Assembly (NCBI GenBank): GCA_043818555.1 | Contig: JBDRFP010000002.1 | Location: 16,774-80,773 of the forward strand | Length of the DNA: 64,000 bases | From: a bacterium | Lineage (GTDB): Bacteria; Patescibacteriota; Patescibacteriia; UBA9934 | Direction: 5' to 3' | Shown: positions 10,413 through 40,373 of the stretch, piece after piece | Layout of the letters: the number at the start of each line of letters is the position of its first letter | Numbering within the stretch: position 1 is the first letter of the stretch | Position numbers and translations under genes: made by a program | The notes under the pieces: generated by a model | Database searches by the model: none | What the model was told of the DNA's origin: nothing | What the model saw: the letters and a program-made list of their open reading frames with translations, nothing else

Positions 10413-10862
10413 TCACAACCCAAGAGCTTCATCGATGGCTTTGTTTACCATTGCGTCCGCCTCCTTGTTAAACTCACGTCTCACATGAGAAAATCTGATT
10501 TCGCGAAACTTTTGTTTAAAGTTGTGGATCTCCAAAAAATATTCTGCGAGCTTGGCGTTTTTCACCCTATACTCGCCGTTTAATTGTTTGACTGCCAATT
10601 CTGAATCGAGCCTGACATCGATTGACTCAATCCCAAGCTCTTTTGCTTTTTTAAGACCATAAACGATTGCGGAGTACTCAGCCTGATTGTTGGTTGCAGT
10701 GCCAAGGTAAACTCCCTGTTCGAAAATTTTCGGTCCAAGACTTCCGTCCGCATCAAGTTCAAATAAAACAAAACCTGCCGCAGCCGGCCCGGGATTCCCC
10801 CGCGCTCCTCCGTCAGCGAACAATCGTGCTCGTTTTAAGCCCATACGGATATATTGTATCAC
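10413..10862 (-). CDS. rnhA: Ribonuclease HI
   Basis: Catalytic N-terminal motif LFADGGARGNPGPAAAGFVL and the RNase H fold. The start may be the internal Met (MGLKRA). Confidence 0.85.
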   Translation of the reverse strand: MIQYIRMGLKRARLFADGGARGNPGPAAAGFVLFELDADGSLGPKIFEQGVYLGTATNNQAEYSAIVYGLKKAKELGIESIDVRLDSELAVKQLNGEYRVKNAKLAEYFLEIHNFKQKFREIRFSHVRREFNKEADAMVNKAIDEALGL

Positions 10863-10948
10863 GAAGTGGAATAAGGTGAAAAAGTGAGATGAGGTGAAAT
10901 ATAAAACCCCATCGACTATTACTAGTCAACGGGGTCGAGTCGTCCACT

Positions 10949-13009
10949 TTACGATGAACGAATTCTGTAGTACTCGTCGCGGTGGACGAGATACTCCTCA
11001 AGCATGAACCCTACGAGGATTTCGTCGTCGTAGAGCCAGCGGAAAACTTCTTCCTCCGGATTCCGCTCGAACATACGCTGGAGCTCCTTATTCGTTACGC
11101 CAAGCAGTGAACAGTACCTACTGCGCTCGGCGCTTTCCGACACATCCTCCCAGCGCGGGTAGAACTCAAAGTCGGTTGACTCCGTGTCAGCGTACGCTTC
11201 TCTGCGCCCCTCAACCTCAATCGAGAGGTAAAACAGATGCAGAAGGTCCTTCCCAATGCGGCGAACAAACGGGAGGTACTCGTCCTTTGTGATGCCAGCC
11301 CTTGGACGATCTGTAGGGCTGCGGATCTCTGCAAACAGCATATCCCGCAACGCCTGCCTGTATTTCAAATCACCTGCAATCCTGCGAGCATCGGCCTTTG
11401 CAATCCTTGCAAACGAATCCACAACGGTCGATCGCCACAGGTTGATCTCCATGTCCTCGTGGCTTTCGATAAGCCCGGGCAGGCCCTCCACGAGCGCGCT
11501 CGCGGGCAGCAGGCTGGCGTAGCACGCCATAAACTCGGGCGTAATCTCTACAAGGCCGCTGCGGAGTAGACCCTTCATTGAGCGCTCGTCCAACCCTCTC
11601 TCGAAAATCATTCGGATCACTTCTTCGCGGTATGAAGGACAGGCTTTGGGCAAAAAGTCGACGACCATGCGCAAAGGCAGCACTTCTGCTTCAATAACCG
11701 ACAACCAATCTTCAGGGTTCAACATAGCCCAGTCAATGGCTCCGGCAACCGTATTTCGGAGGTATTTTTCCCGCTCGGACTCTCTCAGCCCTTCCGGGAA
11801 GTCAAACTCCCCGCCCCTTGCCGCCATCAGCGCATTTTCCGAGTTGAGCATCGCCTGGTCGTCTGTCAGAGCCAGAAAGACGATTTCAAGAGTGTGCTCG
11901 TCGATTGTATCCGTTCTTATTTTGCAAAGACTTCGGATTCCGTCCTCAATGGTTCTATGCACGATCACGAGCTCAGAATCACTAGGATCCCAGCCACGGC
12001 CGATCAGGCGTCCTACAACTCGCCTGGCCAGATCGTTCCCGGGTTCCTCCAGACGAATTTGCTTCATGGACTCCTGAAACTCTTCTAGGTCCACAAAGTC
12101 CTTGTCCGGTCCGTTGATGACTGCGAGAAGAATCTGCGCATTGATCCATGTACGCTCAATGGACTGCGTTTGCTGTCCGAACGCGTTCTCGGGGATTTCC
12201 TCAAGCTTCTTTGGCAGCCTACTGAAAGCTTCTGCCATCATAGTGTAGCGCAGCATCGTTTCACGGGCGTTTACAATTCTTGTAACACTGTTCGGATTTC
12301 CCCTTCCGAAAATGTCCAACTTTGACGCACCCGAACTCAGAAAGTCCAGCTTTCCGCCCTGCGCAGAGAGCATCGGCATTGGCGTGGCGCGTACGAAATG
12401 AGTGTACGAATTTTCGAAATCTTCGCAGAATCGCCCAATTGCTTCACCAAGCGCGCGAGCTTCCTTCACCATCCGCCCAAAGAACTGGGCGACAGGTGGA
12501 ACAAGCACATTACTCAGAAGATCAACGCCCTGCGCGTCCTGCCTGGAGATTTCTAGCCGCGCGATGATGTCATTTCCAAGCCCCAGGTCAGCCCAGGCTT
12601 GCTTGCTAAGCTTCATTCCAGGCTGTATGCCAATCTTGAGAGCATGATTCACAGCATGAACCACTTCGCGCTCAAATGCGTCTGCGGCCTCCCCCATGTC
12701 CTCGAACGAAAGGGCCAGACCGGCATTTACCAACGAATCGGTCTTTTGGCAAATGCGCTCAAAGTCAGATTCGCTCTCAATGTTCAGCCCCATAGCTTTC
12801 CCAATCACCTCAAGCAACTTGTACATACCGCGAATCACGGCTTCGCGAACAGGAAACTCGCTCCAAGTTACCTGGCCGCACATAGTTGTCGTGACCGGAG
12901 CGTAGCGGCGAATCAGCTCCGCATACAGCTCGGTAAACGGCGCACCGCTCGATTCCTCGATCACCCGCGCCACAGGCACGAGCGCCGTGGTATATTCTTC
13001 GTGAGTCAT
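10949..13009 (-). CDS. Hypothetical large protein (686 aa), high GC
   Basis: Long ORF with GC near 58-60% against a background near 42%. No recognisable catalytic motif. Predicted mainly alpha-helical. Confidence 0.6.
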   Translation of the reverse strand: MTHEEYTTALVPVARVIEESSGAPFTELYAELIRRYAPVTTTMCGQVTWSEFPVREAVIRGMYKLLEVIGKAMGLNIESESDFERICQKTDSLVNAGLALSFEDMGEAADAFEREVVHAVNHALKIGIQPGMKLSKQAWADLGLGNDIIARLEISRQDAQGVDLLSNVLVPPVAQFFGRMVKEARALGEAIGRFCEDFENSYTHFVRATPMPMLSAQGGKLDFLSSGASKLDIFGRGNPNSVTRIVNARETMLRYTMMAEAFSRLPKKLEEIPENAFGQQTQSIERTWINAQILLAVINGPDKDFVDLEEFQESMKQIRLEEPGNDLARRVVGRLIGRGWDPSDSELVIVHRTIEDGIRSLCKIRTDTIDEHTLEIVFLALTDDQAMLNSENALMAARGGEFDFPEGLRESEREKYLRNTVAGAIDWAMLNPEDWLSVIEAEVLPLRMVVDFLPKACPSYREEVIRMIFERGLDERSMKGLLRSGLVEITPEFMACYASLLPASALVEGLPGLIESHEDMEINLWRSTVVDSFARIAKADARRIAGDLKYRQALRDMLFAEIRSPTDRPRAGITKDEYLPFVRRIGKDLLHLFYLSIEVEGRREAYADTESTDFEFYPRWEDVSESAERSRYCSLLGVTNKELQRMFERNPEEEVFRWLYDDEILVGFMLEEYLVHRDEYYRIRSS

Positions 13010-13159
13010 CTTGTCTCCAATTGTTGTGCGAGCTTAGCCCGCGATGTAATGAACTTTCTTGTCGATTGCTGAAGCAATGACAATGACAATTACTATAACT
13101 TTGGATGAAGATTGATTTTCATTCCTTGGTCATGGTCACTGTCATAGTCATAGTTTCGT

Positions 13160-13214
13160 GTTAAGAAACGACCCGGCCCCGTCCATCTTGCAATGGATAG
13201 AGCCGGGCAAGTTT
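13160..13214 (-). terminator. Rho-independent terminator after the 326-aa acidic protein gene (CCCGGC...nested TCCAT-TGCAAG-ATGGA...GCCGGG followed by TCGTTTCTT)
   Basis: GC-rich stem with a nested stem directly downstream of the stop at 13215. Confidence 0.45.
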
Positions 13215-14195
13215 TCAGATCAGGTCGTCATCGTCGTCCGCGGAAGCCTGTTCTGCCTCCTGGAACGATGTGACTTCCTGCCGCACTCGCTCGCGCGCCG
13301 CGCGCAGATCCTTCTGCGCGGCGCGGAGCATGTCATCCGTGGTGAGGATCATATCCCCCTCCTCAACGAACTCCAGATATTCCTCCTGGAGTTCTTCGTT
13401 GAGCCCTACAAGCTCTAACAACTCCGTGATTCGATGGTCGAAGAAGTCGCCGTCGATGGCTTCGGCATCCCCTTCCTCATCTTCCTCATCTTCATCTTCC
13501 TCGTCCTCATCCTCGGAAATCCCCTGGATCTCGTGGAATATGGCCGAGAATAGGTAAGCTTTCAAGCTCACGCCCTGAGCGACTACCTCTTCGAGAAGCT
13601 CGCGGAAGTCGTCTCGCTCCGAGAGCTTGCGCCCCCATGCGAGAATTCGCGCCATGATGGACGCATCCAGATCCGCGAACGGGATCATGTCATCGATACC
13701 GGAATATTCACCTTCGCCGTCGCCTTCGGATTCACCGGGATCGCCTTCGCTCCCAAGGGCATCGAATGCCGTAGAAGCAGCTGCTGCTGCGTCCAGGTCC
13801 CGACCATCGGCCTCGTCCTTGAGCTCCTTTCGGAGCGCGGCAAGCACTGCTTCCTTCGAAGCTACAACGAACATCGAGCTCGGCAGGTCGCCCTGCAAAA
13901 GCAGTAGGTCTCCCAGATGCACTGTGGCGATGTGGTCGCTGAGCAACTCATGCGCTTGCTCGTTCGTGTGCTCACCCACCACCACCTCGACCACTCGGGC
14001 GCGTTCCCCAACGAGGAGCCCGCCCTTGCCAATCGACAACGGCTTGCACAGCATGAGCGCCGCCTTCGGGTCTGCCCTGACCGCTGCCTTGGCGACCGGG
14101 TCAAACTCGTCGCGGAACAATCTGGCCGCGTCGCGCCCGCCTCTTTGAAGGGCGTTCACAGCTTCAGATACCTGAAGATCGAATTTCTTGCTCAT
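13215..14195 (-). CDS. Hypothetical highly acidic protein (326 aa) with an Asp/Glu run (DEDEEDEDEEDEEGD)
   Basis: ORF in the same GC-rich block, about 65-70% GC. Contains acidic low-complexity tracts. Confidence 0.6.
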   Translation of the reverse strand: MSKKFDLQVSEAVNALQRGGRDAARLFRDEFDPVAKAAVRADPKAALMLCKPLSIGKGGLLVGERARVVEVVVGEHTNEQAHELLSDHIATVHLGDLLLLQGDLPSSMFVVASKEAVLAALRKELKDEADGRDLDAAAAASTAFDALGSEGDPGESEGDGEGEYSGIDDMIPFADLDASIMARILAWGRKLSERDDFRELLEEVVAQGVSLKAYLFSAIFHEIQGISEDEDEEDEDEEDEEGDAEAIDGDFFDHRITELLELVGLNEELQEEYLEFVEEGDMILTTDDMLRAAQKDLRAARERVRQEVTSFQEAEQASADDDDDLI

Positions 14196-14203
14196 CTCAC
14201 CTC

Positions 14204-14722
14204 CTATCGGTAAATGCTGAGTTTGGTGTTTCGCGCCATGGCTAGGATGTCGTGGAGCTCGGCCAATAGCGCCTTACCAACCGCTAGTCCTGCCAAGGCA
14301 TTCAAGAATGCGCTCACATTGGCGTTGTTAGGCTTTACCCGAAACCCTTCGCCCAAATCAACTGCCACGCAGCAACTCAGGAAGACCGCGAGATCTGGGC
14401 CCGAAACTGAGTTCGCGAGCCTGAGCGTCATATCGAGCACATCCTCGCCCGCTTCGGGCGTAAGGTATGCATCGAGCGTCTGCCGTCTCCGGTCACGCTC
14501 GTAATCCACATAGGCCTCGAACACATCCCTGAACTCGGAGAACAAGTTCTCCTGAGAGTTCGCTGTCAAGTCCGGATCGAACTCATGAAACAGGTCGTCC
14601 GGATGTTCCTCGTGGTCGTCCGCGTACGGATCGAGCAAGCGCTCGTCCTCTGCAGTCAAGTCACCGAGCCTCATCTTGAATCCACTTGTGCTTGCGGGCC
14701 GTACGATCCTTCTTTTTCCCAT
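14204..14722 (-). CDS. Hypothetical acidic protein (172 aa)
   Basis: Same strand and composition as its neighbours. Separated from the 326-aa gene by 8 nt. Confidence 0.55.
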   Translation of the reverse strand: MGKRRIVRPASTSGFKMRLGDLTAEDERLLDPYADDHEEHPDDLFHEFDPDLTANSQENLFSEFRDVFEAYVDYERDRRRQTLDAYLTPEAGEDVLDMTLRLANSVSGPDLAVFLSCCVAVDLGEGFRVKPNNANVSAFLNALAGLAVGKALLAELHDILAMARNTKLSIYR

Positions 14723-14843
14723 GATTTCTCCTGATTTTATTGGAAAGAACTGTGTCGCAATGACAATTCAGACTAACAAAAATCGGGCGATTTGTCAAGT
14801 AAAAAACCTGCTCCACGACTCTTGGTCGAAAAAGCAGGTTGCT

Positions 14844-15362
14844 TTAGCGCAAAAACACGAATAAATTGCCCGATTCTGCGCCATTCATACCCTCAGGGCC
14901 AACGCCGGAGATCTTTCCCCATAGAGAACGGCCTGGCATATTCGGAAGGGCTATTTCCACTCGATCGAGCGGCAACGGCAATGGCGAATTGAGTTCAATC
15001 GTAGCATGTTTTTCCGAGGGCCCCACCCATGCCACCACCATCACATCCGTACCGGGCGCCGGCTCCAGCCTGGCCTTGTCGCGCATGATTTCTCGCACGC
15101 GCACGCCGGCAGGGTCTGCCTTGAACAAGTCACCAATTGTTTCAACATTTGTCCCGCGATCATAGTTGCGACGCCGAACAAGGTCGGTCAAAATGCCGTA
15201 CGCGTATCTCGCACGCTCAAAACGCTCGGCAGATGCCAGGTCATCTCCGGCAATATCCGGATGAGATTCACGGGCAATGGCTCGAAACGCCCTCTTAATT
15301 TCCCTCTTGGACGCGTCCCGGCTAACGCCAAGAACATCGTACAAACTCTCGTGAGCCATCTT
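14844..15362 (-). CDS. J-domain protein (DnaJ-like co-chaperone domain, about 172 aa) with an uncharacterised C-terminal domain
   Basis: J domain with the HPD motif (MAHESLYDVLGVSRDASKREIKRAFRAIARESHPDIAG). Start placed at the internal Met. The ORF track extends further to 15533. Confidence 0.7.
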   Translation of the reverse strand, partial: KMAHESLYDVLGVSRDASKREIKRAFRAIARESHPDIAGDDLASAERFERARYAYGILTDLVRRRNYDRGTNVETIGDLFKADPAGVRVREIMRDKARLEPAPGTDVMVVAWVGPSEKHATIELNSPLPLPLDRVEIALPNMPGRSLWGKISGVGPEGMNGAESGNLFVFLR

Positions 15363-15626
15363 GACCTCCATGGTTAAAATGAACGAGGAAAAAGAGTAAC
15401 ACAGGCATGACCCATTGTCAAGATTCACGCTCAATTTGACAACATTACCGTTTTTGTTTATCATCCTAGTAAATTCGAATTTCCTACGAATATGATTGCG
15501 AATAAAACAACGCTTACCCGATTGCATCATCATGCAGAACCCTCTTTCAAGAAGAGATCTGTTTGATTTTCGACTACTTTAGAAAACAGACCAGGCCCCT
15601 TCTTGAAAAAGAGGGGTCTTTATTTT

Positions 15627-16478
15627 ATGGAAAAAATCATGCAAATAATCACTAAATACGACGCAAAAGGCAAACAGAATGAATCCTATGCCCAATTGCG
15701 TCAACGCGTCGCCTCAATCGTATCGCAAGGCGAACGGTTAGTGTTGCTTACGTTTACCTGCTCTACAATTAACGCTCAGGAGATGTTTAGTCGTACGCCA
15801 TGGAAGTATGTCGCTCTAGATCCACAAGGCAATAATCTTTCAAACGACATTCAAAGGCTGACACGAATCTTCACCGAAATAAAAACCATTTACCCCAACA
15901 CATCGCTGAAAGTATTAATTGGTAACACGGATCCATACTACATTTATACAAGGCAATTCGATGAACTCGCTTTTGACAAGGCAAGGCTGTGGTATGAGTT
16001 CGAGAAGCGATGGAACATATACAGGTTAAGACTTGAGCAGTGGATCAAAGAGCAGAATCCCGAATGCGACTGCGAAGTAGTCAGTTGGTACGAATTTGAA
16101 AAAGATATCGAAAAAAAAGGACGAAATTTCGAACAAGAATTTGAAGACGCATTATTTGCGATCGATAATTGCGCTAGGCGGTCGGACTTAGACTGGGAGC
16201 TCAGGCAACTTAGTGCCCAGTTTGCTCCCGGCAAATATTTTGACGGCCTTGAACGGCCCGGCGATGATATGCTGCGCGATTGGGTAAGGCGAAAATTTGC
16301 CCAATACGCTGTCCAGGCTTTATGGATTCGGCAATACATGCCAAGCGCAATCCTAATCCAAAATGAAAAACCAAGCGACCTTCGAACATCCATGTACCAA
16401 CCGCTTGTGCGTGAGCAGCTAAATGAAGATTTTCCGGTTTTATATTTTTGTGGGGTTGACAATGAAGGATACCGGTAA
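15627..16478 (+). CDS. Hypothetical protein (283 aa), paralog A of a tandem pair
   Basis: Start moved from the track TTG to the first ATG. The C-terminal half is similar to the downstream ORF (ILIQNEKPSDLRTSMYQ versus ILAQSEKPYDRKDRMYQ). Confidence 0.6.
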   Translation: MEKIMQIITKYDAKGKQNESYAQLRQRVASIVSQGERLVLLTFTCSTINAQEMFSRTPWKYVALDPQGNNLSNDIQRLTRIFTEIKTIYPNTSLKVLIGNTDPYYIYTRQFDELAFDKARLWYEFEKRWNIYRLRLEQWIKEQNPECDCEVVSWYEFEKDIEKKGRNFEQEFEDALFAIDNCARRSDLDWELRQLSAQFAPGKYFDGLERPGDDMLRDWVRRKFAQYAVQALWIRQYMPSAILIQNEKPSDLRTSMYQPLVREQLNEDFPVLYFCGVDNEGYR

Positions 16479-16537
16479 ACAGCTCACCTCCTGAATCATG
16501 CGGCCTTGGCCAAAGGCCTCATGTCAAGGAGGTGAAA

Positions 16538-17326
16538 ATGTGTCCTAGGATTCTCCACAATGGGACGGTACAGACCGCCAACCGCGAACTACGTTCGTGT
16601 GTACATAAAATGACGCCAGCGGACCAAGCAGTTATCGGCATCCTGGAAAAATTCGAGAACGGTTCTGTCGGCAGCTTGTCGATGGTAAATCCGACAGGGG
16701 TGTACAAGCGTATTCAATGTCGACCAATCCAACTTTTAGGATTCTCTTGCCTGGCAACATATTCGGGAAGAGAGGAGCTAATCCCGGAGATCAATCAAAC
16801 CTACTTTTTCCGCAATTCCAAATACGTCAATCGGATCGAACGATTACGCGCGGATTTACTGCGGACAGGGATCGATTTAGAAGTCGAGATCATCCTGCCC
16901 GACACCGAGCCTATCAGAACCTGGGGTTGGGGAACGGATCAGGAAGAACTTACATACTACTGCGAGTGTATGCGTGATGACTTCCAATTGTCTGATGGCT
17001 GGAAAGTAACGATCTGGTCGGAAATCGAAGCTCAACTTGAAAAGCCTATCGACTTTTCGACCTGGGTTGTATGGGCAGGGTCAAAGCCTTTGCTTATCTC
17101 ACAAGTCGTGGCGCACCTTCGACAATTCAAATCAATTAAGTTCCCAAAAGGTGTAGAGTGGTCTGCGCTTCGTCAAGTTGCGGCTTATGCCATGGAAGGA
17201 TTTGTGCTCGAGCAGCTGCGCTCTGAGTCAATACTGGCGCAATCCGAAAAGCCTTACGATCGCAAGGATCGTATGTACCAGTTGTGTCGAAATACTCCGC
17301 TACCAATCATTCACCCATTTATTTAG
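16538..17326 (+). CDS. Hypothetical protein (262 aa), paralog B of the tandem pair
   Basis: SD AAGGAGGTG upstream of the ATG. Similar to the 15627..16478 product. Confidence 0.6.
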   Translation: MCPRILHNGTVQTANRELRSCVHKMTPADQAVIGILEKFENGSVGSLSMVNPTGVYKRIQCRPIQLLGFSCLATYSGREELIPEINQTYFFRNSKYVNRIERLRADLLRTGIDLEVEIILPDTEPIRTWGWGTDQEELTYYCECMRDDFQLSDGWKVTIWSEIEAQLEKPIDFSTWVVWAGSKPLLISQVVAHLRQFKSIKFPKGVEWSALRQVAAYAMEGFVLEQLRSESILAQSEKPYDRKDRMYQLCRNTPLPIIHPFI

Positions 17327-17359
17327 GAGGGGACATGGGACTTCAATGGAGGACGCTAC

Positions 17360-17392
17360 ACCGTAGCGTGGGCGGAATCGCGTGTCACGAAG
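17360..17392 (+). terminator. Rho-independent terminator after the paralog pair (TGTCACGA-AG-TCGTGACA followed by TTTTCC). A second hairpin with a T-run lies at about 17410-17450.
   Basis: 8-bp stem followed by a T-run. Confidence 0.5.
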
Positions 17393-17474
17393 TCGTGACA
17401 TTTTCCTCCGATAGCTTAGGCTGTCGGGGGATTTTTCTTTTGAGTCGAAGGTCAGAATGTCAAAAGTCTAACCT

Positions 17475-19208
17475 CTAACACCCAGCCCCTAGCTCCTCTG
17501 AGATACGCAGGTCTACCACGTGGCCCTGCAAACTTCGATTGCCGTTCCACTCGTTCACATTGATCTCGTAGACCACATCGATCATGTCTCCCATGTTCAA
17601 CTTCTTAGCCCATTTACCAAAGCCAAATGCAATCATATTCCAAACAGACCCTTCAGGAGGATTCACACTTAGCTTTAAATGCTTACCCTCCTTCCCAACA
17701 GCGTTAGCCGTCATCACTTGAAGCCCGCGGGCGACAAAAAGAGGTTTGGGGTTGCCCTTTCCAAACGGAGCAAATCTCTGCAATGTTTCATAAAGTTCCC
17801 AGTCGATCTTGCCGAGCGGCAACTCGGCATCGATCTCAATTGCCGACTGCGGCTCGTTAATTCCAAAAAACTCATCAGCAAACTCGGTGACTTTTTGACG
17901 AAATTGCTCGACATGATCAAGCGTCGCCAGCGATAGCCCGCATGCCTGAGGATGGCCACCGGCTTTGATAAAAATATCACCGCACGAGTGCATTGCCTCC
18001 ACCAAATGGAGTCCACCCGCACTACGACCCGACCCAACAAACTGATTTTCAATCTTGGTAAGCGCAAAAGCTGGCACGCCAAACTCACTCACCAACTTCC
18101 CTGCTACCAAACCAACTATCCCCGGCGCCCACACCTCGCTCCACACAATGTATACTGAGCACTTTTGATCCTCCACAACCATTTCACGCGCTTCGGCATA
18201 CGCGACTTCGGTCGCTTTTTGGCGTTCACGATTTAAGATTTCGAGCTCAGCGGCGCGGTCGGCAGCCTCACGATCATCAGTCGCGATTAAGGTCTTAAAC
18301 GCAATTTCCGCCGACGACATGCGCCCAGCTGCGTTGAGGCGTGGCCCAATCCTGAATCCAATCGCCTGCGTATCAATTTCGCCCAACTTAGTTCGTGAAG
18401 ACTCGATGATCTTTTTTAACCCTGGCCGCCGAGTCTTATTGAGTACCACAAGCCCAAACTTTTCAAGTGCCCGATTCTCACCTGTGATCGGCATAACATC
18501 GGTAACTGTTGCGATTGCGACCAAATCGAGATACCACTTTTCGTGTCCGTCCGGCAGGTCAGCGCCGCGTTTTCGAGCTTCACGAATTAACGCTGTCGCA
18601 AACTTAAACGCTACGCCTGTGCCGCAAAGATCTTTATTTGGATACGCGTCCTCGAGCAGCGGATGGATAATCGTCGCGCGTGCAGGCAGATCACTAGCGA
18701 GCTGATGGTGGTCGCAAATAATTACATCCATGCCAAGCTCGTGCGCGCGATTCAGCTCACTGGCGTTCGATGTACCGCAGTCGACTGTTATGATTAAATT
18801 GACACCATCCCGATGCAATTTATCGATCGTATGCATTACCACGCCATAACCGTCGCGCTCTCGATCAGGCAGGTAAGCTTCGACATCGAGTGCCGAACCG
18901 CGTAGCCCGACTCCCGGTGTCGAGCTAGCCACGTCATGCAACACATTCCAAAGCAAAGCCGATCCGCAAACGCCATCAGCGTCGTAATCACCATGAACAA
19001 CTATTTTATCACCTCGCTCTAAAGCCAAAAAAACGCGATCTACCGCGTCCTGCATTTTTCTGAATAGCGACGGGTCAAGCACATCCTCCCACCTTGGATG
19101 TAAGAAATCCTCTCTGTCCTCCGTCTTAATCCGACGGTTGAGCAAAAGCTGCTCAACAACATCGTCCGACCTTCGCTCAGCTACTTTCCATTGTTTATTC
19201 ATGCACAA
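17475..19208 (-). CDS. recJ: Single-stranded-DNA-specific exonuclease RecJ
   Basis: 577 aa. DHH motifs (HGDYDADGVCGSALL, ITVDCGT, DHHQ) and a DHHA1 C-terminal region. Confidence 0.9.
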   Translation of the reverse strand: MCMNKQWKVAERRSDDVVEQLLLNRRIKTEDREDFLHPRWEDVLDPSLFRKMQDAVDRVFLALERGDKIVVHGDYDADGVCGSALLWNVLHDVASSTPGVGLRGSALDVEAYLPDRERDGYGVVMHTIDKLHRDGVNLIITVDCGTSNASELNRAHELGMDVIICDHHQLASDLPARATIIHPLLEDAYPNKDLCGTGVAFKFATALIREARKRGADLPDGHEKWYLDLVAIATVTDVMPITGENRALEKFGLVVLNKTRRPGLKKIIESSRTKLGEIDTQAIGFRIGPRLNAAGRMSSAEIAFKTLIATDDREAADRAAELEILNRERQKATEVAYAEAREMVVEDQKCSVYIVWSEVWAPGIVGLVAGKLVSEFGVPAFALTKIENQFVGSGRSAGGLHLVEAMHSCGDIFIKAGGHPQACGLSLATLDHVEQFRQKVTEFADEFFGINEPQSAIEIDAELPLGKIDWELYETLQRFAPFGKGNPKPLFVARGLQVMTANAVGKEGKHLKLSVNPPEGSVWNMIAFGFGKWAKKLNMGDMIDVVYEINVNEWNGNRSLQGHVVDLRISEELGAGC

Positions 19209-19257: not shown

Positions 19258-19920
19258 TTACCCTGTCATTCTCGGGTTCAGAGCCTCTTGGAGTCTCTGT
19301 ACGATTCGTTCATGAGTCGGGATCTCTCCGCTGATCACCGGGTCGTCGCAATCAACGAAGACGCCTTCCTCGTTCTGCCTTTGGAACTTGCGGAAGTAGA
19401 GAGTCTTTCCGCTTTTTGACGGCCTACTGGCTACAATGGACTCACCGTCCCAGTTCTTCCAGTACGCCAGGAAGTGGTCCATGGTTCTGCCAAGCCACCA
19501 AGCCTTTGCCGGGGCCTGTTCGACCCCCTCCACAAGAGAATTGCGACCGACAAAAATTCTGTACACCGTTAGGCTCTTTTCGATTTTCTGACACGCGTCA
19601 TACTCATCTTCAAAAAACCATGTTGACACAACCGGGGACAAGCCGCCAGGATGCTGTCTCCTGTTGGGGCTACCCCTGAAGCATACCCGGTCATCAACTT
19701 TGACATCTCGAGTTCTATCCGGTACATAGTCTACCCCGACCATCCGACCGCGTTCCGTTACCCAGGCGAACTTTTGATTGTCCACCTTGAAATAGTATTC
19801 GAGCCCAGACTCATCTTCTGTGATGAACCCATAGCCCATATTTGGGTTGTACCACCTTACAACTCCTCGTCGACACTTTGGCCACTCTCTTGTCTCTCTA
19901 TCCCTGTCATTCACCATCAT
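19258..19920 (-). CDS. Cold-shock-domain protein with a long C-terminal extension
   Basis: N-terminal CSD (RGVVRWYNPNMGYGFITEDESGLEYYF). 220 aa, with GC above background. Confidence 0.65.
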   Translation of the reverse strand: MMVNDRDRETREWPKCRRGVVRWYNPNMGYGFITEDESGLEYYFKVDNQKFAWVTERGRMVGVDYVPDRTRDVKVDDRVCFRGSPNRRQHPGGLSPVVSTWFFEDEYDACQKIEKSLTVYRIFVGRNSLVEGVEQAPAKAWWLGRTMDHFLAYWKNWDGESIVASRPSKSGKTLYFRKFQRQNEEGVFVDCDDPVISGEIPTHERIVQRLQEALNPRMTG

Positions 19921-26232: not shown

Positions 26233-28764
26233 TCACAAACTCGGCGGAACAGGCTCAGCCGTTGTAGGCTTTGACATTCCAATCCCGGCCCTAATCCTAA
26301 TCTCGCGGTCAACAATATCTCTTGGACGGCCATAAGTCAGGCGCGAGATCTCCTTAAGAGCATCGGCAAGCTTTTTGTTCGGCTCGCCTGGCCATTCCGT
26401 TTTAAGCGTGTAAGGCTTTAACAACTTTTCATTTGCAACAGTTTTTGCATTCCAAGTAAACTTTCCTGTGTTCATTAAGTCGTAAGGGCTAAATGTAGGC
26501 TCAAACACCTTGGCAAGAACCTCAACATCGTCCGGACCAATCCGCGCCGATAACATGCTGCCAACGTTACCAAGCACAGCGTCGCGAATTTCCGTCCTGC
26601 CACTCTCATCAGTCAATTGCCCCATGTACTGATGCGCAAGAATTAGGTTCAACTTGTATTTTCGAGCCTCGGACAAAATAGTCGCAATCGACGGAGTAAT
26701 ATAATTTTGGAACTCGTCAATATAGAGGTAAAAGTCCCTGCGTTCGTCTTCTGGAATGTCTGCCCTGCTAAACGCTGCCATTTGCAATTTGGAAATAAGA
26801 ATGAGCCCGATTAGATTTGAGTTCACTTCGCCGGTTTTACCTTTGGACAAGTTAACTAGCAAAATTTTACCCTCGTCCATAATTTCGCGAAAATTGAAGG
26901 CGCTATTTTTCTGCCCAATAATATTGCGCATCATCTCGTTTTCCACAAACCTACCAACCTTAGAAACCAGGTAGCCCATAGTTTCCGACTTATGGTAATC
27001 GCTCGTTTTTGCCATTTCGTCCTCCCAGAAACTTCGTACAACAGGATCCTTAACGCGCGCAATCCATTTGGCCTGGAACTTATCGTCAGCGATAATCCGC
27101 GGAATTTCGATCAAAGTCCCTGTGTCAGACAAGTCGGCCATCAAGGTCAGCATGAAGTTCCTCATGTAGTGCTCAAACATTGGCCCCATTGTTTCCGGCG
27201 GGAACAGCATATAAAAGATCGAGATCATTTCCTGCACGGCAAAGTCGCGCATGTTCTCATCTGGCGCCTCAAGCATATTCAAGCCCATTGGCCGCTCAAT
27301 GTCTGACGGGTTGAAGTAGATAACATCGTCGATTCTATTCTTTGGGATTTGACCAAGCACAGCATCGGCCAAGTCGCCATGCGGATCAAGCACAGCCACG
27401 CCTTTCCCTGCCTTAATGTCCTGATTAATCAGTGAGCGCAAAAAGACCGATTTACCTGTACCGGTTTTACCAATGATGTAAAAATGTCTTCGGCGGTCAG
27501 AATCCCCAATGAATACATCGGTTCTAACTCCGCGATATTCGTTGTATCCAAGACGCAAACCCTCCTTGGCTATCTCCGGTGGCACAGGCGCCACGCGCGA
27601 TTCCAGCCAGCGAATGTTTGGGGTCTCCGTTGACGCCAAAGGCAAATGCCACAAGCTAGCCATTTCCTCAGTGTTCAAAACAATACTGTACTTTGGATTA
27701 AAGCCGCGGTAAATAAAATCTCGAACTATCCTAGATTTCTTATTTGGAATCTCAGCACTAAAAGCATTGCCGTATTCGTAGATATTAAATTGGTTGAACG
27801 CCTTCAGGGCACCGTCCAAATCTTCCTTAACCGACTGAGCGCTCTTGCCCGACGCTACAACTCGAATATTGGCCTCTATCCCGGCCTTGGTCATCTTGGC
27901 CTCGATGCGCTGCGACATCTGCTCTTCAGCCTGAGTCAGCTTCCTTGGCTCTTCCGGCTTGTCTTTATCTTTCGACTTAAACATGTCTTTCCAGGTCGAT
28001 TTACCCTTCAGCGCATCTTCAAACGACATGCCCTTGTTCATGTTTTTGACCACCTTTTTGCCCAAGCCCCGCCAGCCCGGGCGAGCCGAGCGAACAATGT
28101 ACTGGATTGCCACGCCCTCGCCTTCGCCGATCTTTGAAAGCGCGTTGGTAATTCCATCGAGCGGATCAGACTCACTCTCCTTGTAGGTCTTCACCGGCAA
28201 CATGGACTGACGCTTAAAATTCAAATACCCGCCGGCAACAGTGGAAGTCGGCGTGAACAAGTTATAATCTTCAACCGGCTCAATTGCCGCGTCAGGATAC
28301 TGCGCATGCAACTGCTCCTCAATAAAGTCCCTCATGTACACCGGAACTGTCACATAAAAATCGATCATTTTGTCGATTACGACAATCTCCAAAGCCAACG
28401 AATCGGTCCTGCCAAAAAGCCATGCGCTAAAACCCTTCTGAGCTGTCAAGCCACCGATCGCGCTATAAAATGTCTCGGCAATTGCAATGTCTTCCTGCCA
28501 CTGCGCTATTGTGGCATCGCCCTTAACATCTCCTTCGGTTACAAACTTTGGCACCAAAACTTGCAAAGTGATGTTTTGATACTGCCCGCCGTGAATATTG
28601 CGGTTTTTCTGCAGAAAGTGTCGCAATAGGTAAACCGACCCCACTGCTGCAAAAATTATTAGCGCTACTGTAATCAAAATCGTAAGTGCCTGAAAAGCAT
28701 CAACCTGTGTGAAAGCGGGCTGAGTTGGAGCGCCTACTGTGATTTGGATCAATCCGATGTACAT
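26233..28764 (-). CDS. Fused membrane-domain plus VirD4/TraG/TrwB-like P-loop ATPase (type IV coupling-protein-like), 843 aa
   Basis: The N-terminal 400 aa are homologous to the 560-aa protein at 51759..53441 (LHAQYPDAAIEPVEDY versus LYAQYPEAQMLEVEDY). The C-terminal ATPase is homologous to 49518..51635 (RRRHFYIIGKTGTGKS, LDPHGDLA). Start set to ATG 28764. The track N-terminus MGIHWELIVGHWSL comes from reading through a conserved leader. Confidence 0.75.
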   Translation of the reverse strand: MYIGLIQITVGAPTQPAFTQVDAFQALTILITVALIIFAAVGSVYLLRHFLQKNRNIHGGQYQNITLQVLVPKFVTEGDVKGDATIAQWQEDIAIAETFYSAIGGLTAQKGFSAWLFGRTDSLALEIVVIDKMIDFYVTVPVYMRDFIEEQLHAQYPDAAIEPVEDYNLFTPTSTVAGGYLNFKRQSMLPVKTYKESESDPLDGITNALSKIGEGEGVAIQYIVRSARPGWRGLGKKVVKNMNKGMSFEDALKGKSTWKDMFKSKDKDKPEEPRKLTQAEEQMSQRIEAKMTKAGIEANIRVVASGKSAQSVKEDLDGALKAFNQFNIYEYGNAFSAEIPNKKSRIVRDFIYRGFNPKYSIVLNTEEMASLWHLPLASTETPNIRWLESRVAPVPPEIAKEGLRLGYNEYRGVRTDVFIGDSDRRRHFYIIGKTGTGKSVFLRSLINQDIKAGKGVAVLDPHGDLADAVLGQIPKNRIDDVIYFNPSDIERPMGLNMLEAPDENMRDFAVQEMISIFYMLFPPETMGPMFEHYMRNFMLTLMADLSDTGTLIEIPRIIADDKFQAKWIARVKDPVVRSFWEDEMAKTSDYHKSETMGYLVSKVGRFVENEMMRNIIGQKNSAFNFREIMDEGKILLVNLSKGKTGEVNSNLIGLILISKLQMAAFSRADIPEDERRDFYLYIDEFQNYITPSIATILSEARKYKLNLILAHQYMGQLTDESGRTEIRDAVLGNVGSMLSARIGPDDVEVLAKVFEPTFSPYDLMNTGKFTWNAKTVANEKLLKPYTLKTEWPGEPNKKLADALKEISRLTYGRPRDIVDREIRIRAGIGMSKPTTAEPVPPSL

Positions 28765-28794
28765 GCTACTAAATAGGCAATCTTGAAGTGACAC

Positions 28795-28881
28795 TAATGA
28801 CCAATGCCCAACTATCAATTCCCAATGAATCCCCAATATCCAACCCCTAATTGGTTATTGGGTACTTGTGAATTGGTCATT
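28795..28881. repeat. CCAAT-box-rich leader element copy A, inverted-repeat bounded (TAATGACCAATG ... GAATTGGTCATT). It contains a 43-nt block identical to copy B.
   Basis: taatgaccaatgcccaactatcaattcccaatgaatccccaat is identical at 28795-28837 and 51642-51684. Confidence 0.8.
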
Positions 28882-31001: not shown

Positions 31002-32042
31002 CTAGGCGCGCACCTTGGCGACCTCCAGACTGGCGATCGTGAAGCCGGTTGCTTCTTCGATCTCCCTCCTGCGATCGCGCATGCGATCCATGCGCTCTGC
31101 CATTTCATGAACCATGTCGATGGCCGAGTGCGAACGCACCGACTGCTGGCCGAATTCGCCTTCACACGCCCTGCGACGGGCGTACTCAACCTGGCTCTCC
31201 AGCCATTCTTGGTCGGCCCTGCATGCCACGAGAAAGTCCTTCACCTTCTGGCGGTCGGTGTCCTTCTCGATTAACCCAAGCTCCAGCTGATCCTGAAGAC
31301 CGGCGAGGAACTTCACTTGCCTGTTCCAGCTCTCCAAGCCTTCGAGCAAGGACCGGAATAGCTTGTAGCGGTCGTCCTCAAGCAGAAACTTACCGGGCTT
31401 CCTTCCGCCGAGTGAAACATGGCTCACTTCAAGACTTGGAGCGAGCTCCTTATCTGCGAAGAAGAAATACACCCCTCTTACGACCGCGAGTACGGCCTGT
31501 AGGCCGAGCGGCCGCTTGCCACGAACTTCATCCGGAATCAGCTCTGACCTCACCACATGATAGGCGAATAGGCCGATCGCCAAGAACGGAAAGGTAGCGA
31601 ATCCTGCCAAGACCGCGGCCAAACCGACACCAACTTTCGTGATAGGGCTAATGTTCTGCCAATCCTGATCCAACATGCCCGACAAGCCCATTGCGACAAT
31701 CATCACGACTGCGGTGGCCAACAGGTAAAATGGGGTCGCGATGGGGCCGAGCCACAGTGCGAGCGGCACTGCGAGCGCTGCCCAACCCAACATGGCCGAC
31801 GGGTACCACTTCCCAATCTTCATTGCCATGTCACGGCTGAACGCGCGCTTGCGCGCGAATGCCTGCTGCTCGTGTAGCAGAAGCGTCACGCAGTCGAGCT
31901 TGTTTGCCAGATCTGCCGGCAAACTCTCGATTTTGAACTTCTTGAAAGGAGCAAGCGAATCACTCATGTTTTTCTCCAGTTTTTCAAGTTTTTGTCGATC
32001 TAAAGAACTGCCTACAGTATACCATTTTGGGCTTTTTGTCAA
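31002..32042 (-). CDS. Hypothetical membrane protein (346 aa), high GC
   Basis: Several TM helices in the first half and a charged C-terminal domain. GC about 58%. Confidence 0.55.
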   Translation of the reverse strand: MTKSPKWYTVGSSLDRQKLEKLEKNMSDSLAPFKKFKIESLPADLANKLDCVTLLLHEQQAFARKRAFSRDMAMKIGKWYPSAMLGWAALAVPLALWLGPIATPFYLLATAVVMIVAMGLSGMLDQDWQNISPITKVGVGLAAVLAGFATFPFLAIGLFAYHVVRSELIPDEVRGKRPLGLQAVLAVVRGVYFFFADKELAPSLEVSHVSLGGRKPGKFLLEDDRYKLFRSLLEGLESWNRQVKFLAGLQDQLELGLIEKDTDRQKVKDFLVACRADQEWLESQVEYARRRACEGEFGQQSVRSHSAIDMVHEMAERMDRMRDRRREIEEATGFTIASLEVAKVRA

Positions 32043-37098: not shown

Positions 37099-37109
37099 GT
37101 TTTTATTTT

Positions 37110-37129
37110 CCCCCCCTTTTTAAGGGGGG
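37110..37129. terminator. G/C hairpin CCCCCCC-TTTTTAA-GGGGGG between the DUF559 gene and dnaJ
   Basis: Perfect 6-7-bp G/C stem. A similar hairpin lies on the other side of the DUF559 gene. Confidence 0.5.
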
Positions 37130-37140
37130 ATTAAGGGGGG

Positions 37141-37512: not shown

Positions 37513-37527
37513 AGTAACCACCCCCTA

Positions 37528-37548
37528 CCCCTCCTTAAAAAGGAGGGG
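37528..37548. repeat. G/C hairpin CCCCTCCT-TAAAA-AGGAGGGG upstream of the DUF559 gene
   Basis: Perfect 8-bp stem. Partner of the 37110 hairpin. Confidence 0.5.
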
Positions 37549-38456: not shown

Positions 38457-40373
38457 TTATTTTTCGCTTTCCGATCCTTGATCATCAACATCCTTAAACT
38501 CAGCGTCTTTTACTTCAGGCTCGGCGTCGGCAGGTTGATCCCCAGTTTCTGACGCTTGAGCCCCAGTTGCCTGCTCTTGCTGGTACATTTTTGCCCCAAT
38601 CTTCTGAGCCTCTGTGGATAACTCATCAGACGCCTTTTTAATAGCATCGATATCGTCTCCGTCTTTAACAGCCTTCAAAGCATCGATCTTTTCGCCAATT
38701 ACTTTCTTTTCATCGTCAGCGATCTTTTCGCCATACTCACTCATCATTTTCTCAGTTGTGTAGACCATTGTATCAGCCACATTCCTAACTTCAATCTGCT
38801 CCTTTTTCTTTTTATCATCCTCAGCGTGAGTTTCCGCGTCAGCCTTCATCTTTTCGATCTCCTCGTCGCTAAGCCCTGACGAAGCTGTGATTGTAATCTT
38901 CTGCTCACGACCGGTCGCCTTGTCCGCAGCCTTTACGTTTAAGATTCCATTAGCGTCAATATCAAACGAAACTTCAACCTGCGGGATTCCTCGCGGCGCC
39001 GGTGGAATGCCGTCCAGCATAAACTGCCCGAGCAGTTTGTTGTCGACCGCCATCTGACGCTCGCCCTGGTAAACTTTAACATCTACCGAAGGTTGGTTGT
39101 CAGCAGCGGTTGAGAAAATTTGACTCTTGCTTGTTGGAATAGTGCTGTTTCGATCGATCAGCTTGGTGAACACACCGCCGAGCGTCTCAATGCCAAACGA
39201 CAACGGCGTAACATCGAGAAGTAAAATATCTTTCACATCGCCCTGCAAAACTCCAGCCTGAACAGCCGCGCCAAGCGCCACCACTTCGTCCGGGTTCACA
39301 CTAATGTTTGGTTTCTTGCCAAAGAACTCCTCAACTCGCTTTTGCACAATTGGCATGCGAGTCATCCCGCCGACCAGAACGATCTCTTCGATCGCGCTAG
39401 CGTCCAACTTGGCATCAGCCAAAGCCCTTTTAACTGGCTCTAGGGTTTTATCTACAAGTGGCGACACCAGCTCTTCAAGCTTTGAGCGCGTTAGTTTCAT
39501 AACAAGGTGCTTTGGACCTTCAGCGCCCTGAGTAATAAATGGCTGATTAATCTCGGTTTCTTGAGCTGTGGATAACTCGATTTTAGCTCGCTCAGCAGCA
39601 TCTTTCACGCGCTGCATGGCCAAAGAGTCGCCTGCCAAATCAACACCCTCCTGAGTCTTGAACTCTTGAATTATCCAGTCAATTATCACCTTGTCAAAGT
39701 CGTCACCGCCCAAATGAGTGTCGCCGTTGGTTGAAATAACCTCAACAGTTGAATCGGAAACATCGAGCACTGACACATCAAAAGTTCCGCCTCCTAGATC
39801 GTACACAAGAATCTGCTGGCCAACTTTTTTATCAAATCCGTATGCCAGCGCAGCCGCGGTCGGCTCGTTGATTATACGCGATACTTTCAAACCGGCAATC
39901 TCACCAGCGTCCTTAGTAGCCTGGCGCTGTGAGTCATCAAAGTAAGCCGGCACAGTAATCACCGCCTCAGTTACAGGCTCGCCAAGACGCTCTTCGGCAT
40001 CGGCCTTCATCTTTTGGAGAATCATTGCGCTCACTTCCTGCGGCGTATGCTCCTTATCTCCAATCTTCACTGCCACACCTTCGCCACGAGCAACAATTTC
40101 AAACGGCATCACTTTAACATCGTTTTGAATCTCATCGTCGGAAAACCTGCGTCCAATCAGGCGCTTAATCGAGTAAAGTGTGTTATTTGGATTTGTAACT
40201 GCCTGACGCTTTGCCGGCACGCCAACCAGGCGCTCGTTATTCTTTGTGATTGCCACCATTGACGGCGTGGTACGCGCGCCCTCCTTGTTTTCTAAAATTT
40301 TCGGCTGTCCACCCTCCATTACAGCCATTGCGGAATTGGTAGTTCCAAGGTCTATTCCTAGAATTTTTGACAT
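38457..40373 (-). CDS. dnaK: Chaperone protein DnaK (Hsp70)
   Basis: 638 aa. [18 protein letters not shown], Hsp70 signatures throughout. Confidence 0.95.

What the first reader, a model, noticed from the sequence alone, without database searches (positions are those of the whole stretch)
10949..17474. GC-rich accessory island between rnhA and recJ: a J-domain protein heads a block of unassignable proteins
Four co-directional minus-strand genes occupy 10949-15362: a J-domain protein of 172 aa, a 172-aa acidic protein, a 326-aa protein with a DEDEEDEDEEDEE tract, and a 686-aa helical protein. They have 58-70% GC against roughly 40-45% elsewhere (for example 13260-13320 is about 70% GC). They are followed by two tandem paralogous plus-strand genes with their own SD sequences and terminators (15627-17326). 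None of the six has a motif I can place. A J-domain protein outside the resident dnaK-dnaJ operon, co-encoded with unknown partners in a compositionally foreign block, is the strongest candidate here for an undescribed module, possibly a phage-derived or defence-related chaperone-recruiting system.
Basis: partly seen in the sequence, partly recalled or inferred. Interest (0 to 1): 0.7.

Follow-up and report, generated by a model that had tools for sequence, protein, structure and literature searches.

The report
Conserved J-domain four-gene operon in Patescibacteria
The GC-rich block is one copy of a previously undescribed four-gene operon, found in many ultra-small (Patescibacteria) bacteria, in which a specialised Hsp70 co-chaperone is always encoded with three fast-evolving acidic partner proteins, one of them with a fold unlike any solved structure; its cellular job is still unknown.

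Summary
The GC claim is overstated: the four minus-strand genes are 54.8% GC against 48.6% for the window. The excess is real, though, and lies at synonymous sites.

The four genes are not orphans. A full HMMER scan finds 131 relatives of the 686-aa protein. In all 11 independent loci I could read, the order is the same: J protein (~175 aa), small (~125-190 aa), mid (~250-360 aa), large (~670-730 aa). Flanking genes differ from locus to locus, and small and mid are fused once. Named members are all Patescibacteria.

None of the three partner proteins matches Pfam, NCBIfam, PADLOC, PHROGs or PDB sequences. A confident model of the large protein (pLDDT 92.5) has no PDB or viral fold match.

The module evolves much faster than its neighbours (34-52% against 72-81% identity). 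It is GC3-enriched relative to flanks in every genome examined.

Best reading: a dedicated J protein that directs the resident DnaK to its co-encoded partners. A conflict or defence role is the main rival.

The two plus-strand genes are a separate conserved pair. They are distant paralogues with a PvcA/TyrRS/cyclodipeptide-synthase-like fold.

The parts
14844..15359 (-). Gene 1: specialised J-domain co-chaperone (171 aa). It has a J domain with HPD, no G/F region and no zinc finger. A ~100-aa C-terminal domain ends in G(D/N)LFV.
   Evidence: PF00226 E 7e-18. H33-P34-D35 are invariant in 10 orthologues. The C-terminal part aligns weakly to CTD2 of T. thermophilus DnaJ2, 6psi. GGAGG lies 5 nt before the ATG.
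14204..14722 (-). Gene 2: small acidic protein (172 aa, net charge -12). It carries conserved EF..(S/A)(L/F)..Y and DLAA.LS.C(V/L) motifs.
   Evidence: Homologous to the gene after the J gene in the other loci. It is fused to the mid protein in L090. No library hit.
13215..14195 (-). Gene 3: mid, strongly acidic protein (326 aa, net charge -51). It carries conserved GDLPS and W..K(L/Y)..R.D(W/F)..(I/L)L motifs, variable D/E-rich inserts and a C-terminal acidic tail ending in a hydrophobic residue (DDDDDLI).
   Evidence: Alignment A3. Tails of 13 orthologues compared. No Pfam or PDB hit.
13010..13214 (-). Structured spacer between the mid and large genes. A GC-rich hairpin plus U-tract sits right after the mid stop codon, followed by a second hairpin and the motif TTCATTACAT at 13044-13054, 34 nt before the large gene's ATG.
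   Evidence: RNAfold z -6.1. The same layout occurs in 8 other loci, z -1.7 to -12.4. Motif positions. No Rfam match.
10949..13009 (-). Gene 4: large all-alpha protein (686 aa, net charge -34). It founds a family of at least 131 clusters and has no recognisable fold relative.
10905..10936 (-). Terminator-like hairpin closing the operon, 13 nt after the large gene's stop codon.
   Evidence: 14-pair stem followed by a T-rich tail.
15360..15626 (.). Divergent intergenic region between the J gene and the 283-aa gene. It contains a promoter-like TTGACA-17-TATCAT at 15436-15464 (+).
   Evidence: These are consensus matches only.
15627..16478 (+). Not part of the module. A 283-aa protein of a conserved Patescibacteria family with a class-I aminoacyl-tRNA-synthetase-like Rossmann fold, closest to PvcA, TyrRS and cyclodipeptide synthases.
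16532..17326 (+). Not part of the module. A 264-aa distant paralogue of the 283-aa protein. The same gene pair occurs in L081/L082.
   Evidence: hhalign probability 92% over 190 columns. 54% identical to the gene that follows the 289-aa orthologue in L081.
17404..17431 (+). Terminator-like hairpin after the 264-aa gene.
38457..40373 (-). Resident DnaK (Hsp70), the presumed ATPase partner of the module's J protein. It lies within hrcA-grpE-dnaK-ham1-dnaJ (36046-41776), with a CIRCE-like operator at 41856-41882.
   Evidence: PF00012 E 5e-257. GrpE, HrcA and class A DnaJ by Pfam. CIRCE match with 2 mismatches, the only one in the window.

Best explanation
Window 10949-15359 (minus strand) is one copy of a four-gene operon conserved in Patescibacteria (named members: Ca. 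Uhrbacteria, Ca. Magasanikbacteria, 'Patescibacteria group').

The first gene encodes a specialised class C J-domain co-chaperone: a J domain with an intact HPD motif plus one small C-terminal domain resembling a DnaJ C-terminal beta-sandwich. The next three genes encode cytoplasmic, mostly acidic proteins without catalytic-looking conserved residues. They are a small protein, a mid protein with a conserved acidic C-terminal tail ending in a hydrophobic residue, and a ~690-aa all-alpha, partly solenoid-like protein of unknown fold.

The module contains no ATPase of its own.

Shown:
- the operon and its conservation;
- the intact HPD;
- the small-mid fusion;
- the absence of known folds or domains;
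- the fast divergence and the GC3 excess.

Inferred:
- The J protein docks on a complex of the three partners, perhaps through the mid protein's C-terminal tail, in the way class B J proteins bind the EEVD tail of Hsp70.
- It then recruits the resident DnaK (38457-40373), which supplies the energy to assemble, remodel or take apart that complex.
- A terminator-like hairpin and a promoter-like motif between mid and large suggest that the large subunit is expressed at a separately set level.
For: Operon conservation:
- The 686-aa protein has 131 full-length relatives.
- Every locus read shows the order J, small, mid, large. Full loci: window, L083, L084, L085, L088, L090, L092, L094, L100. Partial loci: L087, L095, L097, L098.
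- Flanking genes are different in each locus.
- All four proteins are homologous across loci.
- Small and mid are fused into one 383-aa protein in L090, which implies a physical or functional link.

J protein:
- HPD is invariant in 10 J orthologues.
- The C-terminal domain aligns, weakly, to CTD2 of Thermus DnaJ2.

Resident chaperone system:
- DnaK, GrpE and a class A DnaJ are present in the same window.

Partner proteins:
- The conserved positions of the large family are mainly W, F, L, G and A, with a few R and one E. There is no catalytic-type set.
- No transmembrane segments.
- 11 of 13 mid proteins end in [DE][DE]-L/I-[DN]-hydrophobic, typical of a docking peptide.

Transcription unit:
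- A self-contained unit, with a terminator-like hairpin after the large gene.
Against: - No interaction has been tested, so the partners may not be DnaK clients at all.
- The similarity of the J protein's C-terminal domain to a DnaJ CTD is weak (domain scores 3-6 bits). Pfam DnaJ_C does not detect it.
- Tail-to-CTD docking is pure analogy.
- The fast divergence (34-52% against 72-81% for neighbours) and the GC3 excess in all hosts are unusual for a housekeeping assembly factor. They fit conflict systems better.
- There is no CIRCE operator upstream, so no sign of heat-shock co-regulation with dnaK.
Confidence: 0.5

Rival explanations
1. A conflict system: either an anti-phage or anti-mobile-element defence, or a set of symbiont-host interaction factors. 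In this reading the J domain couples infection or stress sensing to DnaK (own or host), and the fast-evolving acidic proteins are sensors, decoys or DNA/protein mimics.
For: - Module proteins diverge far faster than adjacent housekeeping proteins between the window and L083: 52/34/37/38% against 72-81%.
- GC and GC3 exceed those of flanking genes in 10 of 10 loci. DnaK in the window shows no such bias, which argues against an expression-driven codon effect.
- The genomic context differs in every genome.
- The module is absent from the syntenic site in L001.
- An rve-type integrase lies just upstream in L088.
- The strongly acidic proteins could be nucleic-acid mimics (inference).
- Host DnaJ is known to take part in phage sensing by bNACHT25 (PMC12169576, seen by title and abstract only).
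Against: - No PADLOC hit for any of the four proteins, nor for 41 members of the large family.
- No nuclease, NTPase, protease, TIR, SIR2 or pore-type domain, and no conserved catalytic residues.
- The neighbours are ordinary housekeeping genes, not defence islands.
- No phage or plasmid homologues.
Confidence: 0.22
2. An assembly or maintenance factor for a Patescibacteria-specific cell structure such as type IV pili, a competence apparatus or an attachment apparatus. This would be analogous to TopJ in the Mycoplasma terminal organelle.
For: - In the window and in L083 the operon sits directly upstream of rnhA-pilM-response regulator-pilin-prepilin peptidase.
- NCBIfam lists TopJ models among the J-domain matches.
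- The family appears restricted to Patescibacteria among the named members.
Against: - The pilus neighbourhood is seen only in the two closely related genomes. The other nine loci have unrelated neighbours.
- The TopJ matches cover only the J domain, at 52 and 40 bits against cut-offs of 300 and 512.
- No membrane or secretion signals.
Confidence: 0.1
3. A recently acquired foreign island (prophage remnant or integrative element cargo) with no conserved role in this lineage.
For: - The compositional excess.
- An extra 6.6 kb relative to L001, where recJ and rnhA are 57 bp apart.
Against: - No integrase, tRNA or flanking repeats.
- The same operon sits at the same site in the closer relative L083.
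- The operon is intact and conserved over 131 clusters.
- No viral or plasmid relatives.
Confidence: 0.05

Closest known systems
Specialised (class C / type III) J-domain proteins encoded next to their dedicated client or partner, e.g. HscB with IscU/HscA, and CbpA with CbpM (my own knowledge of these systems)
   Same: - A short J protein with an intact HPD.
- It is co-transcribed with the proteins it presumably serves.
- It coexists with a general class A DnaJ, DnaK and GrpE in the same genome.
   Different: - The three partner proteins match no known family.
- There is no dedicated Hsp70 in the operon, unlike hscBA.
- The small protein does not match any known modulator.
- The operon is restricted to Patescibacteria among named members.
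Canonical class B J proteins (CbpA, Thermus DnaJ2, DNAJB1/Sis1)
   Same: - The best PDB matches are Thermus DnaJ2 (6psi, 4j80).
- The C-terminal ~75 residues align to its CTD2, including the G.G..G...GDL(F/Y)V ending.
- Class B CTD1 binding of an acidic C-terminal tail (Hsp70 EEVD; my own knowledge) is a model for how the mid protein's tail could dock.
   Different: - No G/F region.
- One CTD-like domain instead of CTD1 + CTD2 + dimerisation domain. These class definitions are taken from PMC12799103.
- Pfam DnaJ_C is not detected.
Auxilin-clathrin and TopJ-terminal organelle: a J protein that targets Hsp70 to a large helical scaffold (my own knowledge)
   Same: - The logic of the system: a J protein plus a large alpha-helical, partly solenoid-like partner and no ATPase of its own.
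   Different: - There is no sequence or fold homology. This is an analogy of logic only.
Cyclodipeptide synthases and PvcA-type isonitrile synthases (for the two plus-strand genes only)
   Same: - Invariant T-C-S after the first strand and E-x-P recall the CDPS pocket residues G35-x-S37 and E182-x-P184 (PMC3105412).
   Different: - No Pfam or NCBIfam hit and no PDB sequence-profile hit.
- G35 and Y178 equivalents are not conserved (T and L instead).
- No structural superposition of the active site was possible here.
- The family occurs as a tandem pair of distant paralogues.

Membership tests
J-domain protein (Hsp40/DnaJ superfamily, PF00226) | J domain of about 70 residues scoring above the Pfam gathering threshold | tested here: met
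   64.9 bits against a cut-off of 27.8, E 7e-18, residues 7-68.
J-domain protein (Hsp40/DnaJ superfamily, PF00226) | His-Pro-Asp motif needed to stimulate the Hsp70 ATPase | tested here: met
   H33-P34-D35 are invariant in the window protein and 9 orthologues.
J-domain protein (Hsp40/DnaJ superfamily, PF00226) | Actual stimulation of DnaK ATPase activity | not testable with these tools
   Needs a biochemical assay. A DnaK gene is present at 38457-40373.
Class A J protein (DnaJ proper) | Zinc-finger domain (CXXCXGXG repeats) protruding from CTD1 (definition in PMC12799103) | tested here: not met
   No PF00684 hit, and the protein has no cysteine. The resident DnaJ at 36046-37098 does have it.
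Class B J protein (CbpA-like, canonical) | G/F-rich region after the J domain | tested here: not met
   The sequence after residue 69 is GTNVETIGDLFKADPAGVRVREIM..., which is not G/F-rich.
Class B J protein (CbpA-like, canonical) | Two C-terminal beta-sandwich domains plus a dimerisation domain (PF01556) | tested here: inconclusive
   No PF01556 hit. The profile aligns weakly to CTD2 of 6psi only (5.9 bits). About 100 residues leave room for one such domain. No structure model was made.
Known anti-phage defence systems (PADLOC-DB v2) | Match of any component to a defence-system model | tested here: not met
   Only chance-level hits at E >= 0.003 for the window proteins and for 41 members of the large family.
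Integrative mobile element / genomic island | Integrase or recombinase, tRNA or other attachment site, and flanking direct repeats | tested here: not met
   No such gene between 10862 and 17475. Nearest tRNA at 24316. No credible flanking repeat.
Integrative mobile element / genomic island | Deviant composition and absence from the syntenic site of a relative | tested here: met
   GC3 z-scores 4.7-7.1. recJ and rnhA are adjacent in L001. However, the module is present at the same site in the closer relative L083.
Phage-derived module | Sequence or fold relatives in viral collections | tested here: not met
   IMG/VR scans, GenBank phages by tblastn, BFVD fold search and PHROGs, where only the J domain hits.
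Cyclodipeptide synthase family (plus-strand genes) | Class-I aaRS-like Rossmann fold of about 220-290 residues | tested here: met
   [not shown]
Cyclodipeptide synthase family (plus-strand genes) | Conserved pocket residues G35, S37, Y178, E182, P184, Y202 (AlbC numbering, PMC3105412) | tested here: inconclusive
   Invariant T44-C45-S46 and E247-x-P249 could correspond to G-x-S and E-x-P, but G and Y178 are not conserved. The equivalence was not checked by superposition.
Cyclodipeptide synthase family (plus-strand genes) | Use of aminoacyl-tRNA to form cyclodipeptides | not testable with these tools
   Needs an enzyme assay.

The most novel reading that the evidence does not exclude
The operon encodes a Patescibacteria-specific machine of a new kind: a complex built on a protein fold with no solved relative, powered not by its own ATPase but by Hsp70 recruited through a dedicated J subunit.

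Its fast evolution and foreign-like codon composition would reflect a role at the interface with hosts or phages. It could be an immune sensor, or a set of factors delivered into the host cell to capture the host's DnaK/Hsp70.
Probability: 0.15. Interest if true: 0.85.

Novelty: new variant of a known kind. Interest (0 to 1): 0.58.

Why it matters
Patescibacteria have tiny genomes and keep few accessory genes, and most of their lineage-specific proteins have no assigned role.

A four-gene operon that is retained across many of their lineages, always led by a J protein, points to a dedicated use of the Hsp70 system in these organisms. It gives three new protein families, one with a confidently predicted but unmatched fold, a concrete biochemical handle: DnaK recruitment.

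If the fast evolution and the foreign codon signature reflect conflict, this would be the first chaperone-recruiting module of that type.

The neighbouring gene pair adds a candidate new branch of the tRNA-synthetase-like, cyclodipeptide-synthase-like enzymes in the same group of bacteria.

Tried and rejected
1. Word-indexed homology search missed the large family.
- The search with the 686-aa protein, and later with a 41-sequence alignment, returned nothing.
- The exhaustive HMMER scan found 131 relatives.
- 'Orphan' was therefore rejected.

2. Exact look-ups of the window's own proteins failed. The source contig could not be fetched, although P0001 shows that the genome is in NCBI.

3. Close-relative scans with the 686-aa protein in genome, viral and metagenome contigs found nothing.

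4. Alignments A1 and A3 were too divergent for pattern scans. A 4-sequence alignment of mid proteins worked and gave 6 loci.

5. Profile searches against PDB sequences:
- for the large family, only a weak designed-armadillo hit;
- for the mid family, nothing;
- the small family was not searched against PDB. Its Pfam scan gave only one chance-level hit.

6. Fold searches of the large model:
- BFVD gave nothing.
- afdb50 was not available.

7. Heat-shock control was rejected. The only CIRCE-like site is upstream of hrcA.

8. Codon adaptation to high expression as the cause of the GC3 excess is unlikely. dnaK, lepA and recJ show no excess.

9. Amino-acid composition as the cause of high GC was rejected by the expected-from-amino-acid calculation.

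10. Flanking repeats or a tRNA target: none.

11. Rfam: nothing in the region.

12. Plasmid origin: no match.

13. Literature: no paper links J-domain proteins to Patescibacteria operons or describes a J-domain defence module.

Full report
**What is in the sequence**

The ORF list confirms four co-directional minus-strand genes:
- 10949-13009 (686 aa);
- 13215-14195 (326 aa, very acidic);
- 14204-14722 (172 aa);
- a J-domain gene ending at 14844.

The most plausible start of the J gene is the ATG at 15359, five bases after a GGAGG. The orthologues begin at the equivalent residue.

Two plus-strand genes follow, at 15627-16478 and 16532-17326. The first is 100% identical to a 283-aa NCBI protein from an unclassified bacterial MAG.

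The flanks are rnhA (10413-10862) and a 577-aa gene at 17475-19208 that I take to be recJ. It has the DHH motif and many relatives, but I did not scan it against Pfam.

The window also holds the resident chaperone cluster on the minus strand:
- hrcA (41027-41776);
- grpE (40491-41030);
- dnaK (38457-40373);
- a Ham1-family gene (37756-38397);
- a class A dnaJ with zinc finger (36046-37098).

A CIRCE-like operator lies upstream of hrcA and nowhere else in the window.

**Composition**

The block 10949-15362 is 54.8% GC and the window is 48.6%.

It is nevertheless the most GC-rich 4.4-kb stretch of the window, about 4 SD above the mean of such stretches. I asked whether amino-acid content explains this. 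It does not.

With the codon usage of 24 other window genes as background:

| Gene | GC3 observed | GC3 expected | z |
|---|---|---|---|
| large | 0.63 | ~0.50 | 6.3 |
| mid | 0.69 | ~0.50 | 7.1 |
| small | 0.67 | ~0.50 | 4.7 |
| J | 0.57 | ~0.51 | 1.8 |

- The two plus-strand genes, rnhA, recJ and dnaK show no excess.
- Three other genes in the window share the excess: two HD-domain genes and an unknown gene at 31002-32042. The module is therefore not unique in this respect.

**The block is extra relative to one relative and shared with a closer one**

- In L001 (MAG casp40-mb.74; RecJ 58% identical) the order is lepA-recJ-rnhA-pilM-response regulator-pilin-prepilin peptidase-ligA. Only 57 bp separate recJ and rnhA.
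- In L083 (Ca. Uhrbacteria) the housekeeping proteins are 72-81% identical to those of the window. There the same four genes sit directly upstream of rnhA-pilM.
- The module therefore predates the split of these two genomes.
- No integrase, tRNA or flanking repeat marks the borders in the window.

**Not orphans: a conserved operon**

The word-indexed search found nothing for the 686-aa protein. An exhaustive HMMER scan of 1.84 billion representatives found 131 proteins (94 below 1e-10). Nearly all are 600-730 aa, aligned end to end at about 20-38% identity.

I fetched the contigs for seven of them and scanned metagenomes with a mid-protein pattern. The result was the same arrangement every time:
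- a DnaJ-domain gene of 172-181 aa;
- a gene of 124-191 aa;
- a gene of 251-360 aa;
- then the large gene.

This holds even for P0205, a remote member (E 7e-13 to the window protein).

BLASTP and HMMs built from the loci show that all four proteins are homologous across loci, not just similarly placed.

In L090 the small and mid proteins are fused into one 383-aa protein.

The surrounding genes differ in every locus. They include secA, gyrA-rpmF-nusB-rnc, recA, ruvA, aminoacyl-tRNA synthetases, priA-def-fmt and glycosyltransferases. The four genes are therefore an autonomous unit.

Every member that carries a name comes from Patescibacteria and is called 'hypothetical protein'.

**What the proteins look like**

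*J protein.*
- It has a bona fide J domain with invariant HPD.
- It has no G/F region and no zinc finger.
- By the definitions summarised in PMC12799103 it is neither class A nor class B.
- Its last ~75 residues align weakly to CTD2 of Thermus DnaJ2, sharing the G.G..G...GDLFV ending. I read this as a single CTD-like domain, with low confidence.

*Small protein.* It has two conserved motifs and no library match.

*Mid protein.*
- It is strongly acidic (net charge -19 to -51 in most orthologues).
- It has conserved GDLPS and W..K(L/Y)..R.D(W/F) motifs and variable D/E-rich inserts.
- In 11 of 13 orthologues the C-terminus is an acidic cluster followed by a final hydrophobic residue: DDDDDLI, EDDELF, EDLDDF, ADDLDL, ADDLDF and others. 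A tail of this kind typically serves as a docking peptide.

*Large protein.*
- It was modelled with 112 sequences at pLDDT 92.5 and pTM 0.74: about 36 helices and a few short hairpins.
- The viral structure library gave nothing.
- A PDB sequence-profile search found only designed armadillo repeats at profile positions 454-522, E 3e-4. This fits a solenoid-like C-terminal half.
- Conserved positions are mostly aromatic, aliphatic or glycine/alanine, with a few arginines and one glutamate. This argues for a scaffold rather than an enzyme.

None of the proteins has a membrane segment.

**Two recurring oddities**

First, between the window and L083 the module proteins are 52% (J), 34% (small), 37% (mid) and 38% (large) identical. 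The adjacent rnhA, pilM, response regulator, pilin, prepilin peptidase and ligA products are 72-81% identical.

Second, the module is more GC-rich than its flanks in 10 of 10 loci, by 3 to 15 points. GC3 carries the difference, for example 0.53-0.76 against 0.25 in L090.

These features fit either repeated horizontal movement or a module-specific selective regime. I could not separate the two.

**Mechanism**

The module has no ATPase. It has an intact Hsp70-activating J domain, and the genome has DnaK and GrpE.

The most economical reading is a dedicated J protein that brings DnaK to its co-encoded partners to assemble, remodel or dismantle their complex. The mid protein's tail is a candidate docking site for the J protein's C-terminal domain. 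This is by analogy with class B J proteins and the EEVD tail of Hsp70, which I cite from my own knowledge and did not test.

I put this at about 0.5.

The main rival, at about 0.2, is a conflict system. It explains the fast evolution, the foreign-like composition and the shifting context. It lacks any positive signature:
- no PADLOC match;
- no effector domain;
- no defence-island neighbours;
- no phage or plasmid relatives.

A pilus-related role is suggested only by the neighbourhood shared by two close relatives.

**The spacer between mid and large**

In compact genomes this gap is consistently long (137-366 nt) and strongly structured. The z-score is -6.1 in the window and -4.9 to -12.4 in seven other loci; L083 is the exception at -1.7.

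The common layout is:
- a GC-rich hairpin with a CCCGG...CCGGG stem base and a U-tract directly after the mid stop codon;
- a second hairpin of variable sequence;
- a motif [TC]TCATTACA[AT], 14-50 nt before the large gene's start.

Similar strings precede other genes. I therefore read the motif as a general promoter or leader signal, and the spacer as a terminator plus an internal promoter. This is not proven.

No Rfam family matches.

**The two plus-strand genes**

They are a separate story.
- The 283-aa protein belongs to a family of at least 126 clusters in Patescibacteria, with many invariant residues.
- In L081/L082 it is again followed by the orthologue of the 264-aa protein. There the pair is preceded by a Trp-repressor-family gene and is far from any J module.
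- The two are distant paralogues over about 190 columns.
- Invariant T-C-S and E-x-P recall part of the CDPS pocket described in PMC3105412. Other pocket residues are not conserved, and I could not superpose the structures.
- They are probably tRNA-synthetase-like enzymes of an undescribed subfamily.

**Verdict**

- The 'island' is composite.
- The phage and defence colouring has no direct support.
- The J protein is a new member of a known superfamily. The module as a whole is an undescribed variant of the 'specialised J protein with dedicated partners' theme, built from three uncharacterised families.

Noticed in passing
[not shown]
   Followed up: partly
window 13010-13214 (-); equivalent spacers in L083-L100: The mid-large intergenic spacer is strongly structured (z -5 to -12 in 8 of 9 loci). 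It has a conserved CCCGG...CCGGG terminator-like hairpin and a [TC]TCATTACA[AT] motif 14-50 nt before the large gene's start. No Rfam match.
   Followed up: partly
window 19258-19920 (-): A 220-aa ORF between lepA and recJ is absent from L001. Its N-terminus (GVVRWYNPNMGYGFI) looks like a cold-shock domain, but there is no Pfam hit at E 1e-3. GC3 is mildly raised (z 2.3).
   Followed up: no
window 31002-32042 (-), 46644-47873 (-), 57166-57765 (+): Three other genes show the same synonymous GC excess as the module (GC3 0.64-0.71, z 5.6-6.2). Two are HD-domain proteins and one has no Pfam hit. This suggests a class of compositionally foreign genes in this genome.
   Followed up: partly
window 26233-28836 (-): An 867-aa protein with VirD4/TraG/TrwB-type coupling-protein and HerA-like ATPase domains. 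This may be part of a DNA-transfer or type IV secretion-like apparatus.
   Followed up: no
L090 6661-7812: The small and mid proteins are fused into a single 383-aa protein in a Ca. Magasanikbacteria genome. This is a Rosetta-stone hint that the two interact.
   Followed up: yes
L088 4365-5357: An rve-family integrase/transposase gene lies about 540 bp upstream of the J gene in one locus. This is the only mobility gene seen next to any copy of the module.
   Followed up: no
L083 10001-10072: The called start of the large gene in the Uhrbacteria record (P0121, 728 aa) is probably too far upstream. The promoter-like motif and a GGAG lie inside the annotated N-terminus, and homology begins at residue 47.
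   Followed up: partly
tool behaviour (vs 30): The word-indexed protein search returned no hit for a family that the exhaustive HMMER scan finds 131 times. 'No homologue' from the indexed search alone would have wrongly labelled the 686-aa protein an orphan.
   Followed up: yes
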